Below are positions 39,931 through 44,583 of a stretch of DNA of 64,000 bases, piece by piece. The stretch comes from Escherichia coli (GTDB lineage: Bacteria; Pseudomonadota; Gammaproteobacteria; Enterobacterales; Enterobacteriaceae): the NCBI RefSeq assembly GCF_013315695.1, contig NZ_CP054353.1. One strand, given 5' to 3'. The position numbers and the translations under genes are program-made. The stretch's first letter is position 1. Each line of letters starts with the position of its first letter. The notes below the pieces were generated by a model. The model did no database searches and had not been told where the DNA came from. It saw nothing but the letters and a program-made list of their open reading frames with translations.

Positions 39931-40026
39931 GATCACACCTTTTAAAGTTATATTTAATATACATGTTTAAGGTTAAGACGCTTAACGCGGGGATAAAAGG
40001 GATTTTTCATGCAACTTTAAGGGAGA

Positions 40027-40040
40027 TTGATTTAGCGCAA
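40027..40040 (-). promoter_or_regulatory. Candidate FNR site in hcp-hcr promoter
   Basis: TTGAT-N4-GCAA near-consensus FNR box (ttgatttagcgcaa) upstream of hcp; hcp is known to be FNR-activated. Confidence 0.3.
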
Positions 40041-40073
40041 TTTTGGCGGCAGGGATCTACCGCCAGAGAGGTA

Positions 40074-40973
40074 TTACGCGGAAAAAAAGGCGATGAGGAT
40101 CGGCACTAACAGGCTGAGAATAAAACCGTGAACAATCGCCGCCGGGACCATATCCAGCCCGCCAGTACGTTGAAGAACGGGCAGGGTGAAATCCATCGAC
40201 GTCGCACCGCATAAGCCCAGTGCAGTAGAGCGGCTACGGCGAATCAGCCCAGGGATTAACATAATAGCAATCAGCTCACGGGCCAGATCATTAAAAAACG
40301 CCGCGCTCCCGATTACTGGACCAAAAGATTCGGTCAATAAAATACCGGAAAGAGAATACCAGCCGAAACCGGAGGCCATTGCCAGCGCGGTATTGATGGG
40401 AAGATCAAGAATAAAGGCGTTAATTAAACCACCAATTAATGAACTGGCAACCACCACCACGGCGACAATCATTCCCCGGCGATTAAGGACAATCTGCTTT
40501 AAGGTCATGCCATTATTGCGCAACTGAATACCGACGAGGAAAAGTAGCAGAATTAAGGTGTATTCACTGGCTTTGGTCGCGTGTTGTAAGAAAGCCAGTC
40601 CACTCAGACCAATGGCAAAACCAATCACTACTACGCCGCACAGTTTTAGCGACTCCAGTGCCATCGCAATACGCGACGGGAGTTTTTCTTGATGATGGTG
40701 GTTGCGCCATGGCAGGCCGCGCTCCAGCCACAACAACGCAATAATATTGCAGAGTAAAATAATGGTAATGCTGACGGAGGAATAATGCAGAATCGCCAAC
40801 AGGTTACTGGCGAGGTTATCGAGAAACGCCAGACTGATACCCATAAAAAAGAGAATGAGGTAAACCATCCAACTTAATAGCTGATTAATAACTCTTAATG
40901 CAGCTTTTTGGCGAAGCGGAATGAGGTAACCCACAATCAGGGGAACCAGAATGATTAACAGCCCAGAAAACAT
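40074..40973 (-). CDS. lysO: Lysine exporter LysO (YbjE)
   Basis: 299-aa product from internal ATG (MFSGLLIILVPLIVGYL...); multi-TMS; last K-12-collinear gene before the IS. Confidence 0.88.
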   Translation of the reverse strand: MFSGLLIILVPLIVGYLIPLRQKAALRVINQLLSWMVYLILFFMGISLAFLDNLASNLLAILHYSSVSITIILLCNIIALLWLERGLPWRNHHHQEKLPSRIAMALESLKLCGVVVIGFAIGLSGLAFLQHATKASEYTLILLLFLVGIQLRNNGMTLKQIVLNRRGMIVAVVVVASSLIGGLINAFILDLPINTALAMASGFGWYSLSGILLTESFGPVIGSAAFFNDLARELIAIMLIPGLIRRSRSTALGLCGATSMDFTLPVLQRTGGLDMVPAAIVHGFILSLLVPILIAFFSA

Positions 40974-41312
40974 GAAAACCCAGTCCTTGCAAAGATGAAG
41001 TCGAAATGCGCGATGACACACTACTGAAAGCGGAAGGACGAGTAAAGTTGCAATTAAAAGGAAATGTTATGCAAAAGGAGCAGTAGAGTATTCGTTTTCA
41101 TTTAAAGATGTTCTTGCGCTTTAATTACAAACCGCACCGGTGTTGGTGGCGTCAAAATCGCTGAAGCGTTCCCCGAAGGCCGGGGCAGCCCACATGGATG
41201 TGGGCTGAGGGCGCGTCTTACAAGGATAATGAGATGGACGCTCCAGATTTTACGGTATCAAAGTACCAGACTGGATCGTTGCAATACGTCCTGAAAAATT
41301 AGGGGCGTCCAC

Positions 41313-42338
41313 ATGAAAGTATCAACTCTTGGTATCGACCTGGCAAAGAACGTTTTTCAGCTTCATGGTGTCGATCATGAAGGCCATACTATTTTGCGTA
41401 AAAAGCTCACCCGGGCTAAGTTTGTTCAGTTTGTGATTCAACTGGAACCTTGTCTGATTGGCATGGAAGCCTGCTCATCCAGTCATTATTTTGCGCGATT
41501 ATTCACCCGCTATGGTCATGAGGTAAAACTCATACCTCCGCAGTATGTGAAGCCTTATGTGAAAACGAACAAGACGGATGCAGCAGATGCTGAAGCAATC
41601 TGCGAAGCGGTAACCCGTCCGAATATGCGTTTTGTTCAGATAAAAACCGAAGAGCAGCAGGCCGTTTTAGCGTTACACACTGAACGGGGAATACTTATCC
41701 GTGAGCGGATTGCCTGTGCCAATAGTTTAAGAGCCACACTTGCTGAGTTTGGTATTACGATTGCGGCCGGACAAAGCCATTTAACACGTGAGCTGCCAGC
41801 CATTCTGGAGGATGGCGAAAATGGTTTATCTCCCTTTGTCAGAACCAGCATCTACAGACAGTCTAAACATATCCGGGAACTTGAAGAACAAGTTAAACAG
41901 GTAGAAGAAGCTCTGGCCTCCTGGTATAGAACGCAGGAAGCCTGCCAGAGAATGGCCAAGATCCCGGGGGTTGGCATGCTAACGGCCACTTATGTGGTAG
42001 CAGCAGTGGGTAATGCCCGACAATTCAGTACCGCAAAGCAGTTCGCTTCATGGCTGGGGCTGACACCAAAGGAACATTCCAGCGGCGGGAAACAGCAACT
42101 GGGAGGGATCAGCAAACGTGGAGATGGATATTTCCGATACCTGCTGGTTCACGGCGCACGCGCACTTACCGCCTGGGTCAACCGAAACGGCGCGGTTGAG
42201 GAGAATTCCTGGCTTCAGGGACTCCTTGAGCGGAAGCACTACAATGTAGCTGTTGTCGCCATGGCGGCAAAAACAGCGAGGATCATGTGGTCAATGTTGT
42301 CACACAATACTGAATATCAACCTCGGCAGCTCGCCTGA
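41313..42338 (+). CDS. IS110-family transposase/recombinase (RuvC-like DEDD N-domain plus C-terminal Tnp domain)
   Basis: 341-aa ORF starting MKVSTLGIDLAKNVFQLHGVD with conserved acidic residues (GIDLAKN, GMEACSS); typical IS110/IS1111 recombinase length and architecture; agggg SD upstream. Confidence 0.85.
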   Translation: MKVSTLGIDLAKNVFQLHGVDHEGHTILRKKLTRAKFVQFVIQLEPCLIGMEACSSSHYFARLFTRYGHEVKLIPPQYVKPYVKTNKTDAADAEAICEAVTRPNMRFVQIKTEEQQAVLALHTERGILIRERIACANSLRATLAEFGITIAAGQSHLTRELPAILEDGENGLSPFVRTSIYRQSKHIRELEEQVKQVEEALASWYRTQEACQRMAKIPGVGMLTATYVVAAVGNARQFSTAKQFASWLGLTPKEHSSGGKQQLGGISKRGDGYFRYLLVHGARALTAWVNRNGAVEENSWLQGLLERKHYNVAVVAMAAKTARIMWSMLSHNTEYQPRQLA

Positions 42339-42384
42339 CACAAGGTCAGTCAATCTGACGAGGTGCTGAAAAAAAGTTAACGTC

Positions 42385-42565
42385 CTGGTAGGTGCAGGTG
42401 ACTTCAGAAGATGGCAAAACAGGTAAGACCGCAGGCAGGATACACCGAGAGGTAACAAGGGCAAGTTAGCCCGTAGAGGATGATTGGTACCTGCCTGGCG
42501 GATTTCATCATGGTTCGGGATAAAAATCCCATCAGAAACCGGATATATGGCTGCACCTACCCGTT
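42385..42565 (+). ncRNA. Candidate structured RNA in IS110 right flank (possible bridge/guide RNA); strand and ends unverified
   Basis: Perfect 10-bp inverted repeat gtaggtgcag (42388-42397) / ctgcacctac (42551-42560) enclosing a nested ccgcaggcagg (42429-42439) / cctgcctggcgg (42490-42501) pair and a ggga-taaaaa-tccc hairpin; no convincing coding potential. Confidence 0.2.
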
Positions 42566-42839
42566 TTATTACATAACTGAAGAAAGCATTGCATTCCGGG
42601 AGCGTCCATATATGTTACCTCGCGCCCGACCCGGTAGCCGTAAGGGATAAGCCGAGGGCACCGCGCAGCGGCGATTTTGTTCGCCAGAGCCCGGGGGTGC
42701 AGGGGGCGGCGGCGATTGGCCGCCCCCTGCGCGCTCCTTGCGCCAGTGATTATATGAAGCAATGCACATGACAGGAGCGCAACAGGATGAGAGACTGAAC
42801 TATTCTCGTTATTTTCGGACCTGATGACATTAATTAATT

Positions 42840-42923
42840 TTAAAATATCATCTTAAATACGCCAGTCACCACCAGTAGCCCAATCAGGAAAATAATCAAT
42901 ACAGCCCAGAGTATAATTTTCAT
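42840..42923 (-). CDS. yohP: Small membrane protein YohP (27 aa)
   Basis: Manual translation MKIILWAVLIIFLIGLLVVTGVFKMIF; below the ORF-track length cutoff; adjacent to mdtQ as in K-12. Confidence 0.8.
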   Translation of the reverse strand: MKIILWAVLIIFLIGLLVVTGVFKMIF

Positions 42924-43146
42924 TGGCGTTCCTTTATTTGTGAGTGCTGAATAAGTATAGGAAAAAACGAAGCCCTTTGCCGCTATTCATAAACGATTAA
43001 GATAAATCGGAAGATATCATTCGCTTAGTGTATATTTTTCTGGATATGTCGTTTTATTGCCACTGATGTATTGCCACGCGAAACTAAAAAATATATCGCA
43101 ACACACGGTAATCTCCGCGCACCTTTTCTTACCTGATTATTCCCCC

Positions 43147-44583
43147 ATGAATCGTGATTCTTTTTATCCAGCCATCGCCTGTTTTCCGCTGTTACTGATG
43201 CTAGCCGGGTGTGCGCCTATGCATGAAACCCGCCAGGCGTTAAGCCAGCAAACACCCGCGGCACAAGTTGACACCGCATTACCCACGGCGCTGAAAAATG
43301 GTTGGCCAGACAGCCAATGGTGGCTGGAGTATCACGATAATCAACTCACCTCATTAATTAATAACGCACTACAGAACGCACCGGATATGCAGGTGGCTGA
43401 ACAGCGCATTCAGCTGGCTGAAGCCCAGGCGAAGGCAGTTGCCACTCAGGATGGTCCACAGCTCGACTTTTCTGCGGATATGGAGCGGCAAAAAATGTCG
43501 GCAGAAGGGTTAATGGGGCCGTTTGCTTTGAACGATCCTGCCGCAGGTACGACCGGTCCGTGGTACACCAACGATACTTTTGGCTTAACGGCGGGCTGGC
43601 ATCTCGATATCTGGGGAAAGACTCGGGCGGAGGTTACTGCTCGCCTCGGTACGGTTAAAGCACGGGCGGCGGAACGCGAGCAAACCCGCCAATTGCTGGC
43701 TGGCAGCGTAGCCCGCCTGTACTGGGAGTGGCAAACCCAGGCGGCGTTAAACACGGTCTTACAGCAAATCGAAAAAGAGCAGAACACCATTATCGCCACC
43801 GATCGCCAGCTATATCAGAACGGGATTACTTCTGCAGTTGAAGGTGTGGAAACCGATATTAATGCCAGCAAAACCCGGCAGCAGCTCAACGATGTCGCGG
43901 GGAAAATGAAAATTATTGAGGCACGGTTAAGTGCGCTCACCAACCACCAGACAAAGTCATTGAAGCTTAAACCGGTCGCGTTGCCGAAAGTGGCAAGTCA
44001 GCTTCCTGATGAACTCGGGTACTCCTTACTGGCCCGGCGGGCAGATTTGCAGGCGGCGCACTGGTACGTTGAGTCATCGTTAAGCACTATTGATGCGGCA
44101 AAAGCGGCATTTTATCCTGACATCAACCTGATGGCCTTTCTGCAACAGGATGCGTTGCACTTAAGCGATCTGTTCCGTCATTCCGCGCAGCAAATGGGCG
44201 TTACGGCAGGCCTGACGCTACCCATTTTCGATAGTGGTCGTCTTAACGCCAATCTCGATATCGCAAAAGCCGAAAGCAACTTGTCTATCGCCAGCTACAA
44301 CAAAGCGGTGGTTGAAGCGGTAAATGACGTGGCGCGGGCGGCCAGCCAGGTTCAGACACTGGCGGAGAAAAACCAGCATCAGGCGCAAATTGAGCACGAT
44401 GCCTTGCGTGTGGTAGGTCTTGCGCAGGCGCGCTTTAACGCGGGCATCATTGCTGGTTCCCGCGTCAGCGAAGCCAGAATCCCCGCGCTGCGTGAGCGGG
44501 CCAATGGCCTGTTATTGCAAGGGCAGTGGCTGGATGCCTCCATTCAACTCACCGGTGCGCTGGGCGGGGGTTACAAACGCTGA
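43147..44583 (+). CDS. mdtQ: Outer-membrane efflux lipoprotein (NodT/OMF family) MdtQ (YohG), apparently intact
   Basis: 478-aa product from internal ATG (MNRDSFYPAIACFPLLLMLAGCAP..., lipobox LAGC); uninterrupted reading frame, unlike the K-12 pseudogene. Confidence 0.85.
   Translation: MNRDSFYPAIACFPLLLMLAGCAPMHETRQALSQQTPAAQVDTALPTALKNGWPDSQWWLEYHDNQLTSLINNALQNAPDMQVAEQRIQLAEAQAKAVATQDGPQLDFSADMERQKMSAEGLMGPFALNDPAAGTTGPWYTNDTFGLTAGWHLDIWGKTRAEVTARLGTVKARAAEREQTRQLLAGSVARLYWEWQTQAALNTVLQQIEKEQNTIIATDRQLYQNGITSAVEGVETDINASKTRQQLNDVAGKMKIIEARLSALTNHQTKSLKLKPVALPKVASQLPDELGYSLLARRADLQAAHWYVESSLSTIDAAKAAFYPDINLMAFLQQDALHLSDLFRHSAQQMGVTAGLTLPIFDSGRLNANLDIAKAESNLSIASYNKAVVEAVNDVARAASQVQTLAEKNQHQAQIEHDALRVVGLAQARFNAGIIAGSRVSEARIPALRERANGLLLQGQWLDASIQLTGALGGGYKR

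What the first reader, a model, noticed from the sequence alone, without database searches (positions are those of the whole stretch)
41022..42839. IS110-family element with candidate structured guide (bridge-type) RNA in its non-coding flanks
Seen: a 341-aa DEDD-type recombinase ORF (41313..42338) is followed by about 500 nt with no convincing coding potential but nested perfect inverted repeats (42388-42397/42551-42560; 42429-42439/42490-42501; small ggga/tccc hairpin), and preceded by a 9-bp stem hairpin (41186-41207). Established: IS110/IS1111 elements lack terminal inverted repeats and encode a ~150-200 nt structured non-coding RNA in one end that base-pairs with both target and donor DNA to direct the recombinase. 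Inference: this element carries such an RNA, most likely on the 3' side. Its target and donor loops would give the specificity of the element that sits at this genome's rearrangement breakpoint.
Basis: partly seen in the sequence, partly recalled or inferred. Interest (0 to 1): 0.75.

Follow-up and report, generated by a model that had tools for sequence, protein, structure and literature searches.

The report
ISEc81 insertion sequence with bridge RNA

Summary
The central inference holds, but the coordinates are too wide and the element is already catalogued. Comparison with empty sites puts the insertion at 41228-42611 (1,386 bp counting one AT core), not 41022-42839. The outer parts, including the 41186-41207 hairpin, are the two halves of the chromosomal TRIP1 repeat the element inserted into.

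It is an IS1111-group member of the IS110 family:
- a 341-aa DEDD recombinase
- 11-bp subterminal inverted repeats
- an 85-nt left end and a 273-nt right end

It corresponds to ISfinder's ISEc81. Durrant et al. 2024 (Supplementary Table 5) already list a bridge RNA detected in its right end.

I mapped that RNA at 42383-42566.
- **Target loop:** GAGGUAACA pairs with the right flank TGTTACCTC. GAGGAUG has the same sense as the left flank AAGGATG.
- **Donor nucleotides:** AUUUCAU and AUAUAUG(G) match the element's two ends.

In 45 related elements each guide fits its own flank or end better than other elements' (permutation p ≤ 1e-4), and the helices covary.

A second, inverted copy lies at dusC-aqpZ in near-identical genomes. 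The two copies bound the known TRIP1a/TRIP1c inversion. No complete genome has this junction without the IS.

Expression and activity of this copy are untested.

The parts
41132..41227 (.). Left half of the chromosomal TRIP1 repeat (TRIP1a type, lysO/ybjE side). This is target DNA, not part of the IS.
   Evidence: It is contiguous with K-12 lysO-aqpZ intergenic sequence (96.7% over 40800-41227) and 90.7% identical to the dusC-yohP copy. The repeat is named in PMC10888264.
41186..41207 (+). It lies outside the IS.
   Evidence: Perfect 10-bp stem (I11). Present in the empty sites L001 and L003. Aligns to the first AYGGAY hairpin of Rfam RF01731.
41226..41227 (+). Core dinucleotide AT at the left junction. 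The empty site has a single copy.
   Evidence: The two BLAST pieces against the empty site overlap by 2 bp, L001 805-806.
41228..42611 (+). ISEc81 body: 1,384 bp, or 1,386 bp counting one AT core.
   Evidence: Absent from the empty sites L001 and L003. Copies of identical length sit at yegH-asmA (L002) and dusC-aqpZ (L101), differing by 1-4 SNPs. Name taken from Supplementary Table 5 of PMC11208160.
41234..41244 (+). Left subterminal inverted repeat, ATGGACGCTCC.
   Evidence: I5: 11 nt, 100% complementary to 42599-42609. Conserved in all close relatives.
41235..41311 (+). 5'-UTR hairpin. The left subterminal repeat pairs with GGGGCGUCCA just before the ATG, covering the Shine-Dalgarno region.
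   Evidence: MFE -29.3 kcal/mol, z = -4.5. The same long-range pairing is predicted in 14 of the 16 relative loci folded; it is absent from the two Citrobacter loci L093/L094.
41313..42338 (+). Recombinase gene, 341 aa: DEDD/RuvC-like N-terminal domain plus Transposase_20 C-terminal domain with the GLTPxxxSSG motif.
   Evidence: Invariant residues D9, E52, D89, D92, S256 and G258 in alignment A1. Distant matches to IS621 (8wt6) and ISCro4 (9t56) transposases.
42383..42566 (+). Bridge (seek) RNA: full match to covariance model R1. The outer stem is 42387-42397 paired with 42551-42561.
   Evidence: 192 bits. The model matches on the + strand, 3' of the recombinase gene in nearly every related locus searched; three extra matches lie elsewhere. 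Covariation. Outer stem, I9.
42429..42501 (+). Target-binding stem-loop. Stem 42429-39/42490-501 with G42498 bulged, inner stem 42444-46/42486-88, apical hairpin 42459-62/42469-72.
   Evidence: 94%, 98.8% and 99.1% of cells are paired, and every pair of these helices shows compensatory changes. z = -4.6.
42446..42457 (+). Right-target guide CGAGAGGUAACA. It pairs with the top strand of the right flank, TGTTACCTCGCG (42613-42624).
   Evidence: 11 of 12 complementary (I10), with 9 contiguous pairs. In 45 elements the score against the own flank is 7.5 versus 3.8 for others; the own flank is best in 34 of 45; p <= 1e-4.
42476..42482 (+). Left-target guide GAGGAUG. It has the same sense as the target top strand AAGGAT+G, so it pairs with the bottom strand.
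   Evidence: Own score 5.7 versus 3.8 for others, p <= 1e-4. Examples: L093 UAUUG with flank CTATT|G, and L097 GGUGGUG with flank GGTGGT|G.
42502..42508 (+). Right-donor guide AUUUCAU in the multiloop. It pairs with the top strand of the left IS end, ATGAGAT (41230-41236).
   Evidence: UCCAU/CCCAU/UUCAU/CUCAU track ATGGA/ATGGG/ATGAA/ATGAG. Own score 6.2 versus 5.4 for others, p <= 1e-4.
42511..42541 (+). Hairpin between the two donor guides: stem 42511-15/42537-41 with an apical GGGAU/AUCCC hairpin.
   Evidence: The two innermost stem pairs covary (CG 38, AU 29, UA 12; and CG 63, UA 14).
42543..42550 (+). Left-donor guide AUAUAUGG. It has the same sense as the right IS end plus core, ATATAT(AA), so it pairs with the bottom strand.
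   Evidence: At least eight different end sequences (ATATATG, ATCTATG, ATGTATG, ACACATG, ATGCATG, ATGTACG, ATAGATG, ATACATG) are mirrored in this segment. Own score 6.8 versus 4.7 for others, p <= 1e-4.
42589..42594 (+). TTGCAT, the -35 half of a promoter that is completed only in a circular intermediate. The -10 TATAAT would be 42611-42613 joined to 41228-41230, with a 16-nt spacer.
   Evidence: Read directly from the sequence. No sigma-70-like + strand promoter lies inside the integrated IS. A junction promoter was shown experimentally for ISEc11 (PMC11187229).
42599..42609 (+). Right subterminal inverted repeat, GGAGCGTCCAT.
   Evidence: I5.
42612..42613 (+). Core dinucleotide AT at the right junction.
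42612..42748 (.). Right half of the TRIP1 repeat (TRIP1c type, dusC-yohP side). This is target DNA, not part of the IS.
   Evidence: 99.0% identical to the dusC-yohP empty site L003, against 93.3% to the lysO-aqpZ copy.

Best explanation
The element at 41228-42611 is a copy of ISEc81, an IS1111-group member of the IS110 family. It has a DEDD recombinase gene followed by a bridge (seek) RNA of about 180 nt at 42383-42566.

**RNA layout**
- One stem-loop (42429-42501) presents two target guides around a small hairpin.
  - The 5' guide, (CGA)GAGGUAACA, pairs with the top strand to the right of the crossover, T-GTTACCTC.
  - The 3' guide, GAGGAUG, pairs with the bottom strand to the left of it, AAGGAT-G.
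- Nucleotides in the adjoining multiloop recognise the element's own ends.
  - AUUUCAU pairs with the top strand of the left end, ATGAGAT.
  - AUAUAUG(G) pairs with the bottom strand of the right end, ATATAT.

**Inferred mechanism, by analogy with ISEc11, ISPa11, ISKpn4 and IS621**
- The element excises as a circle.
- The circle junction assembles a TTGCAT-N16-TATAAT promoter that drives the recombinase gene and the co-transcribed RNA.
- The RNA-recombinase complex pairs the circle junction with the target and exchanges strands at the AT core.
- This inserts the element, in one orientation, right after GGAU in the second hairpin loop of a TRIP1 repeat.

**Shown here:** the boundaries, the RNA's conservation and covariation, and the guide-flank and guide-end matching.

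**Inferred:** transcription, RNA processing, RNA-protein binding, circle formation and catalysis.

Two inverted copies, one in TRIP1a and one in TRIP1c, most likely then underwent ordinary homologous recombination inside the IS. That would give the inversion whose lysO-IS-yohP junction is in this window.
For: **Boundaries**
- Empty sites define the ends...ACAGGG-AT-GTTACC....
- The same 1,386-bp unit is found at three different TRIP1 copies.

**Family**
- NCBIfam equivalog at 359 bits and Pfam PF01548 plus PF02371.
- 11-bp subterminal repeats (I5), conserved in relatives.
- Short left end and long right end.
- Listed as 'ISEc81 | Detected Bridge RNA End: RE | IS1111' in Supplementary Table 5 of PMC11208160.

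**RNA**
- Model R1, built from 11 elements of 54-88% protein identity, gives 85 matches at E <= 0.01, all on the + strand. The main match in nearly every related locus lies just 3' of the recombinase gene.
- 86% of cells are paired against at most 42% when slid. 31 of 39 pairs show double changes, and 0 of 500 shuffles reach this.

**Guides**
- In this copy the right-target guide matches the flank at 11 of 12 positions (I10).
- Matched-versus-mismatched tests on 45 elements:

| Guide | Own | Others | p |
|---|---|---|---|
| Right-target | 7.5 | 3.8 | <= 1e-4 |
| Left-target | 5.7 | 3.8 | <= 1e-4 |
| Left-donor | 6.8 | 4.7 | <= 1e-4 |
| Right-donor | 6.2 | 5.4 | <= 1e-4 |

- The order of the guides, top-strand match 5' of bottom-strand match, and the overlap of the two matches on the target are as described for IS1111-type seekRNAs (PMC11187229).
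- Donor nucleotides sitting in a multiloop is as described for many IS1111 elements (PMC11208160).

**Inversion**
- The reciprocal junction dusC-IS-aqpZ is present in the same genomes.
- 98 complete genomes have lysO-IS-yohP. None of 5,426 has that junction without the IS.
Against: - No transcript, circle or transposition data exist for ISEc81 itself.
- Rfam 15 has no family that matches the RNA.
- The donor region's secondary structure is not settled.
  - The three outer pairs of the hairpin between the donor guides, and the CAG/CUG helix, show almost no covariation.
  - An alternative helix, 42409-14 with 42505-10, is 93% paired and would occlude part of the right-donor guide.
- The left-target guide matches the common TRIP1 loop (ACAGGGAT) one base less well than it matches this copy's variant (ACAAGGAT).
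- Alignment A3 was fitted to the model's structure, which biases pair counts towards it.
- Many of the 45 elements are related, so the permutation p-values overstate independence.
Confidence: 0.9

Rival explanations
1. The 3' non-coding structure is only a transcript-stability, terminator or protein-binding element of the IS. It plays no part in choosing the target, which the protein recognises directly.
For: The structure is thermodynamically stable. Large parts of it are invariant in sequence, as expected for a protein-binding scaffold. No expression data exist for this element.
Against: The only hypervariable blocks inside an otherwise conserved RNA are complementary to each element's own flanks. 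The own flank scores best in 34 of 45 elements. Variable end sequences are mirrored in the RNA. No terminator-like site is predicted there. Deleting or reprogramming this region in related IS1111 elements abolished or redirected transposition (PMC11187229).
Confidence: 0.04
2. The element spans the reader's full interval (41022-42839), with guide RNA candidates in both flanks, including the 41186-41207 hairpin.
For: Both outer segments are highly structured, and they are complementary to each other (I2).
Against: Both outer segments are present and contiguous in genomes that lack the IS. These are K-12 lysO-aqpZ and VCSW8 dusC-yohP. They form the TRIP1 repeat found in 96% of E. coli genomes (PMC10888264). 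Model R1 finds nothing there.
Confidence: 0.01
3. The lysO...yohP inversion arose by recombination between the TRIP1a and TRIP1c repeats themselves, as proposed by Li et al. 2024. ISEc81 inserted into both hybrid repeats only afterwards.
For: - TRIP1a and TRIP1c are 94% identical, 273 bp long and inverted relative to each other. PMC10888264 attributes 137 rearrangements to them.
- Informative a/c differences start only tens of bases from the insertion point. A crossover in the central TRIP1 bases therefore cannot be excluded.
- The 98 genomes may descend from a single event.
Against: - None of 5,426 complete genomes has the hybrid junction without the IS, whereas 98 have it with the IS.
- The reciprocal junction also carries the IS.
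- The switch from a-type to c-type flank coincides with the IS.
- 1.39 kb of near-identical inverted DNA is a far better substrate for homologous recombination than 273 bp at 94% identity.
Confidence: 0.2
4. The inversion was catalysed by the IS recombinase and its RNA acting on the junctions of the two integrated copies, not by host homologous recombination.
For: Bridge recombinases can invert DNA between inverted sites (PMC11208160). The crossover cannot be located inside the IS from sequence alone.
Against: This is an inference. Exchange between the left junction of one copy and the right junction of an inverted copy would leave one IS-free hybrid target and one head-to-tail IS joint. What is observed is one complete IS at each junction.
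Confidence: 0.05

Closest known systems
ISEc81 (ISfinder entry; Durrant et al. 2024, Supplementary Table 5)
   Same: This is the same element. The recombinase sequence printed for ISEc81 matches the window's ORF apart from a few residues. The table lists it as IS1111 group with 'Detected Bridge RNA End: RE'.
   Different: The published table gives only the end in which an RNA was detected. I found no published guide assignment, boundaries, natural target or role in the inversion. A full-text search for 'ISEc81' found only element lists.
seekRNAs of IS1111-family ISEc11, ISPa11 and ISKpn4 (Siddiquee et al. 2024, PMC11187229)
   Same: - The RNA is encoded in the long 3' non-coding region.
[quoted passage not shown]
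- The elements have subterminal repeats and add no extra bases on insertion.
- A promoter is formed at the circle junction.
- ISPa11 also targets a repeated palindrome.
   Different: The targets differ: ISEc11 uses GTGAAAATACTG, whereas this element uses a TRIP1 loop. Those elements have experimental support (co-purified RNA, deletion, reprogramming). ISEc81 has none.
IS621 bridge RNA (Durrant et al. 2024; Hiraizumi et al. 2024; PDB 8wt6)
   Same: - One RNA carries separate target and donor guides.
- Each site is read on opposite strands to the left and right of a short core.
- The recombinase is DEDD-type with a C-terminal serine motif.
- The target is a repeated palindromic element.
   Different: - The IS621 RNA lies 5' of the gene, in the left end. 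Here it lies 3'.
- IS621 uses two simple internal loops. Here the donor nucleotides sit in a multiloop.
- The core is CT in IS621 and AT here.
- IS621 has 2-3-bp subterminal repeats. Here they are 11 bp.
- The proteins are only distantly related, E = 1.5e-7 over the C-terminal domain.
ISYen1 (Yersinia enterocolitica) and ISEch3 (Dickeya)
   Same: These are the closest named relatives, at 69% and 65% protein identity. They share the same subterminal repeat, the same RNA scaffold, the same left-target guide GGAUG, and insertion right after A[U/G]GGAU in a hairpin loop.
   Different: The right-target guide differs and matches their own flanks. For ISEch3, UUCGCCGCGU pairs with ACGCGGCGAA at 10 of 10 positions.
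TRIP1 repeats (Rudd 1999; Li et al. 2024, PMC10888264) and Rfam RF01731 TwoAYGGAY
   Same: The flanks of the IS are TRIP1a (left) and TRIP1c (right). Intact TRIP1 copies align over the whole TwoAYGGAY model, with two adjacent hairpins carrying AUGGAU and AGGGAU loops.
   Different: These are the target, not part of the IS. The Rfam score is 30.9 bits against a gathering score of 43, so membership of TwoAYGGAY is not established.

Membership tests
IS110 family, IS1111 group | DEDD (RuvC-like) N-terminal domain plus a C-terminal Transposase_20 domain with the conserved GL-P----S/T-G motif | tested here: met
   PF01548 (E = 1e-14) and PF02371 (E = 4e-24). NF033542 at 359 bits against a cut-off of 140. 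D9, E52, D89, D92, S256 and G258 are invariant in A1. The motif reads WLGLTPKEHSSGG.
IS110 family, IS1111 group | Subterminal inverted repeats of 7-17 bp, set a few bases in from the ends | tested here: met
   ATGGACGCTCC at 41234-44 and GGAGCGTCCAT at 42599-609: 11 bp, perfect, 6 bp from the left end and 2 bp from the right end excluding the core.
IS110 family, IS1111 group | Short left non-coding end and a long non-coding region downstream of the recombinase gene | tested here: met
   The left end is 85 nt and the right end 273 nt, from the empty-site boundaries.
IS110 family, IS1111 group | Sequence-specific and orientation-specific insertion with no target-site duplication beyond a shared core | tested here: met
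   The same position and orientation relative to the TRIP1 loop is used at four junctions: lysO-yohP, dusC-aqpZ, yegH-asmA (L002) and dusC-IS. Only AT is shared.
IS110 family, IS1111 group | Circular intermediate whose junction forms a promoter for the recombinase gene | not testable with these tools
   In silico only. Joining the ends gives TTGCAT-N16-TATAAT, and no + strand promoter lies in the integrated copy. Circle formation needs PCR.
Bridge RNA / seekRNA | Conserved structured RNA in the long non-coding end, on the recombinase strand | tested here: met
   85 model matches, all on the + strand, with the main match just 3' of the gene in nearly every related locus. 31 of 39 pairs show compensatory changes, and slide and shuffle controls are far lower.
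Bridge RNA / seekRNA | Target-binding loop with two guides that pair with opposite strands either side of the crossover and overlap at the core | tested here: met
   42446-57 pairs with the top strand of the right flank. 42476-82 pairs with the bottom strand of the left flank. They overlap on T-G. Own-versus-other tests give p <= 1e-4.
Bridge RNA / seekRNA | Donor-binding nucleotides complementary to the two IS ends | tested here: met
   42502-08 matches the left end and 42543-50 the right end. At least eight end variants are mirrored in relatives, p <= 1e-4. The exact secondary-structure context is unresolved.
Bridge RNA / seekRNA | The RNA is transcribed, binds the recombinase and is required for recombination | not testable with these tools
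   Shown for ISEc11, ISPa11, ISKpn4 and IS621, not for ISEc81.
Rfam RF01731 TwoAYGGAY (considered for the target repeat) | Score at or above the curated gathering threshold, with two hairpins carrying AYGGAY loops | tested here: inconclusive
   Scores are 30.9 and 30.6 bits against a gathering score of 43, over the full model, with E = 0.004-0.04. The first loop, AUGGAU, fits the consensus. The second, AGGGAU, departs at the Y position.

The most novel reading that the evidence does not exclude
The ISEc81/ISYen1/ISEch3 clade keeps a fixed left-target guide (GGAUG) and varies only the right-target guide. Its members would therefore be specialists for A[U/G]GGAU hairpin loops of TwoAYGGAY-like structured repeats: TRIP1 in E. 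coli and similar elements in Serratia, Dickeya, Pectobacterium, Jejubacter and Yersinia.

This would give the orphan TwoAYGGAY motif its first biological association, as a landing pad for RNA-guided insertion sequences. It would also re-attribute the recurrent 'TRIP1-mediated' inversion around the terminus in E. coli to pairs of ISEc81 copies rather than to the repeats themselves.
Probability: 0.4. Interest if true: 0.5.

Novelty: already known. Interest (0 to 1): 0.3.

Why it matters
For the finding as stated, very little is new. The element is catalogued, NCBI already names the protein an RNA-guided transposase, and a published table records a bridge RNA in its right end.

What this analysis adds:
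- exact ends for ISEc81
- an explicit map of its four guide segments
- its natural target, the second hairpin loop of the TRIP1 repeat
- the observation that every complete E. coli genome with the lysO-yohP inversion junction carries the IS at that junction, which bears on a 2024 paper that attributes the inversion to TRIP1 itself

The clade offers a natural series of guide variants on a constant scaffold, which could help anyone engineering IS1111-type recombinases.

Tried and rejected
- **Rfam on the window:** Rfam 15 over 40000-44000 found no bridge RNA family. The only hit was a chance miRNA match inside the ORF.
- **Genome scan for relatives:** I fetched the close relatives one by one with the look-up of encoding contigs instead.
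- **Automatic end detection:** my inverted-repeat search picked a wrong repeat in 13 of 58 loci, where the distance from the RNA was over 55 nt. Those loci were dropped from the guide tests.
- **Poorly supported helices:** RNAalifold's CAG/CUG helix and the three outer pairs of the hairpin between the donor guides have almost no covariation. I do not rely on them. An alternative helix, 42409-14 with 42505-10, is better supported but conflicts with the right-donor guide. This is left open.
- **A guide RNA in the left end:** I considered and rejected this. The model finds nothing there, and its strong hairpin involves the subterminal repeat and the ribosome-binding site.
- **Repeat annotation:** MG1655 RefSeq annotation has no repeat feature at lysO-aqpZ. 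The name TRIP1 came from the literature.
- **Supplement search:** one supplement search returned only noise.
- **Recombinase-catalysed inversion:** I rejected this on architectural grounds; see the rival explanations.
Full report
**What is in the sequence**

The window is E. coli. The region 40900-43000 is 99.4-99.8% identical to chromosomes such as MS 21-1, IAI39 and SMS-3-5, where it is annotated lysO | IS110 family (RNA-guided) transposase | yohP. From my own knowledge, these strains belong to phylogroup F.

The ORF at 41313..42338 (+, 341 aa) scores 359 bits against NCBIfam NF033542 'IS110 family RNA-guided transposase', whose cut-off is 140. It has Pfam PF01548 (DEDD_Tnp_IS110) at residues 6-146 and PF02371 (Transposase_20) at 211-289. 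Among solved structures it matches only the IS621 and ISCro4 transposases, and only distantly.

**True boundaries**

BLAST against an empty lysO-aqpZ site (K-12, L001) and an empty dusC-yohP site (VCSW8, L003) shows three things.
- 40800-41227 is contiguous with chromosomal sequence.
- 42612 onward is contiguous with chromosomal sequence.
- The two pieces overlap by the dinucleotide AT.

The empty site reads ...TTTTACAGGG-AT-GTTACCTCGCG... The inserted DNA is therefore 41228-42611, or 1,386 bp counting one AT. Units of the same length, differing by 1-4 SNPs, sit at yegH-asmA in strain CE2050 and at dusC-aqpZ in MS 21-1.

The segments 41022-41227 and 42612-42839 are chromosomal, and the 41186-41207 hairpin belongs to the target, not the element.

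**Which kind of element**

The element has perfect 11-bp subterminal inverted repeats, at 41234-44 and 42599-609 (I5). It has an 85-nt left end and a 273-nt right end. This is the IS1111-group layout described by Siddiquee et al. (PMC11187229) and Durrant et al. (PMC11208160).

The recombinase sequence printed for ISfinder's ISEc81 in Durrant's Supplementary Table 5 matches this ORF apart from a few residues. That row reads 'ISEc81 | Detected Bridge RNA End: RE | IS1111'. So the element is catalogued, and a bridge RNA in its right end has already been detected computationally.

A full-text search for ISEc81 found only lists of mobile elements.

**The RNA**

The 3' non-coding region folds better than all 200 shuffles, z = -2.9.

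I fetched close relatives of 54-88% protein identity: ISYen1, ISEch3, and elements from Serratia, Pectobacterium, Acerihabitans, Citrobacter, Jejubacter and Salmonella. All share the subterminal repeat and the end sequences.

Aligning their 3' regions shows long invariant blocks interrupted by one hypervariable block.

A covariance model built from 11 of these sequences gives 85 matches at E <= 0.01, all on the + strand. The main match in nearly every related locus lies just 3' of the recombinase gene, down to 46% protein identity and across alpha-, beta- and gammaproteobacteria.

On the resulting alignment of 83 distinct rows:
- 86% of cells are paired, against at most 42% when partners are slid
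- 31 of 39 pairs show changes on both sides
- no shuffle reaches the observed values

The best-supported helices are these.

| Helix | Window positions | Cells paired |
|---|---|---|
| Target stem | 42429-39 / 42490-501 | 94% |
| Inner stem | 42444-46 / 42486-88 | 98.8% |
| Apical hairpin | 42459-62 / 42469-72 | 99.1% |

The inner pairs of a second hairpin, 42511-15/42537-41, also covary.

One caveat applies: the alignment was fitted to the model's structure, which biases counts towards it.

**Target guides**

In this copy, 42446-57 (CGAGAGGUAACA) is complementary at 11 of 12 positions to the right flank at 42613-24. The repeat finder lists this pair independently (I10).

The segment 42476-82 (GAGGAUG) has the same sense as the left flank plus core plus one base (AAGGAT-G), so it would pair with the bottom strand. 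The two matches overlap at the crossover, and the top-strand match lies 5'. This is exactly as described for IS1111-type seekRNAs.

Across 45 elements with confidently placed ends:

| Guide | Own flank | Other flanks | Note |
|---|---|---|---|
| Right-target | 7.5 | 3.8 | own flank best of all 45 in 34 cases; p <= 1e-4 |
| Left-target | 5.7 | 3.8 | p <= 1e-4 |

Examples:
- ISEch3: UUCGCCGCGU pairs with ACGCGGCGAA
- L092: GUGAAUAC pairs with GTATTCAC
- L097: GGUGGUG corresponds to flank GGTGGT|G

**Donor guides**

The nucleotides between the helices track the element's ends.
- 42543-50 (AUAUAUGG) has the same sense as the right end, ATATAT. In relatives at least eight different end sequences (ATCTATG, ATGTATG, ACACATG, ATGCATG, ATGTACG, ATAGATG, ATACATG and others) are mirrored base for base. 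Own score 6.8 versus 4.7 for others.
- 42502-08 (AUUUCAU) pairs with the left end, ATGAGAT. UCCAU/CCCAU/CUCAU track ATGGA/ATGGG/ATGAG. Own score 6.2 versus 5.4 for others.

This agrees with Durrant's remark that many IS1111 elements carry their donor-binding nucleotides in a multiloop.

The local structure is not settled. A helix between 42409-14 and 42505-10 is 93% paired with some covariation, and it would cover part of the right-donor guide.

**Expression logic (inferred)**

No sigma-70-like + strand promoter is predicted inside the integrated element.

Joining the ends would place TTGCAT (42589-94) 16 nt upstream of a TATAAT made from 42611-13 plus 41228-30. This is the arrangement shown experimentally for ISEc11.

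**The target and the inversion**

The flanks are the two halves of the TRIP1 repeat. TRIP1 is a structured element of about 273 bp, found at ybjE-aqpZ (TRIP1a) and at yohI-yohG (TRIP1c), among other places (PMC10888264).

In this window the left flank is a-type (96.7% versus 90.7%) and the right flank is c-type (99.0% versus 93.3%). In MS 21-1 a second, inverted ISEc81 lies between dusC and aqpZ, 1.58 Mb away.

Junction counts among the 5,426 complete genomes:
- 98 have lysO-IS-yohP
- 94-95 have the reciprocal junction pieces
- none has a lysO-TRIP1-yohP junction without the IS

One complete IS at each junction is what homologous recombination inside two inverted copies would give. Junction-to-junction site-specific exchange would not give it. 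Li et al. attribute this inversion to TRIP1 itself. The data here point to the IS copies instead, with the caveat that the 98 genomes may descend from a single event.

**A side observation**

Intact TRIP1 copies align over the whole Rfam TwoAYGGAY model (RF01731). The scores, 30.9 and 30.6 bits, are below the gathering score of 43.

The element sits right after GGAU in the second loop. Relatives in five other genera also sit right after A[U/G]GGAU in hairpin loops.

**Verdict**

The kind of system, and this very element, are already known. The guide map, the natural target and the link to the inversion are modest additions.

Noticed in passing
window 41132-41227 and 42612-42748; intact copies at L001 731-870 and L003 609-760: The target repeat (TRIP1) aligns over the whole Rfam RF01731 TwoAYGGAY model, but below threshold: 30.9 and 30.6 bits against a gathering score of 43. 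The IS sits right after GGAU in the second AYGGAY-like loop. Further near-threshold TwoAYGGAY hits lie near relatives, at L095 424-498 (40.2 bits) and L084 457-533 (32.7 bits).
   Followed up: partly
window 41235-41311: The left subterminal repeat pairs with a third copy of the repeat (GGGGCGUCCA) that ends one base before the ATG and covers the Shine-Dalgarno region. MFE is -29.3 kcal/mol, z = -4.5. The same long-range pairing is predicted in 14 of the 16 relative loci folded; it is absent from the two Citrobacter loci L093/L094. It may be a translational control. I did not find it described.
   Followed up: partly
window 40897-41227 joined to 42614-42945 (in silico excision), searched in the E. 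coli genome collection: None of 5,426 complete E. coli genomes has the lysO-TRIP1-yohP hybrid junction without ISEc81, while 98 have it with the IS. PMC10888264 attributes this inversion to TRIP1 repeats and does not mention the IS.
   Followed up: yes
window 42409-42414 with 42505-42510: A conserved (U)GAUGG segment 5' of the target stem-loop can pair with the CCAUCA of the right-donor guide region. It is 92.8% paired in 83 sequences, with GC/AU/GU variation at one pair. It has the same sense as the left IS end. It could therefore be an intramolecular mask of the guide or an extra donor-matching segment.
   Followed up: partly
L075 2598-2786 and 2979-3172; L023 586-779; L070 1-161: Some distant relatives have a second match to the RNA model. 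It lies either in tandem downstream of one recombinase gene or upstream of it. These may be duplicated or orphan guide RNA genes.
   Followed up: no
L085 2083-2198; L091 678-780 and 2054-2149; L087 456-579: The flanks of ISYen1 and of the Pectobacterium relative give sub-threshold matches to Rfam Ysr224 (RF02770; 42.2, 26.9 and 45.5 bits against a gathering score of 70). This suggests that the 'sRNA' family is the repeat those elements insert into. L087 has a strong STnc490 match (140.6 bits) upstream of ISEch3.
   Followed up: no
window 41216-41227: This copy's left flank reads TCTTACAAGGAT, where K-12 TRIP1a, TRIP1c and the yegH-asmA copy read TTTTACAGGGAT. The A variant matches the left-target guide GAGGAUG one base better.
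   Followed up: no
L085-L089 junctions: The dinucleotide at the crossover is not always the same on both sides of an element. ISEch3 copies L087 and L088 have AT on the left and AC on the right, while L089 has AC on both sides. Two ISYen1 copies (L085, L086) differ by one T at the right junction. The exact core and cleavage positions in this clade are therefore not settled.
   Followed up: no
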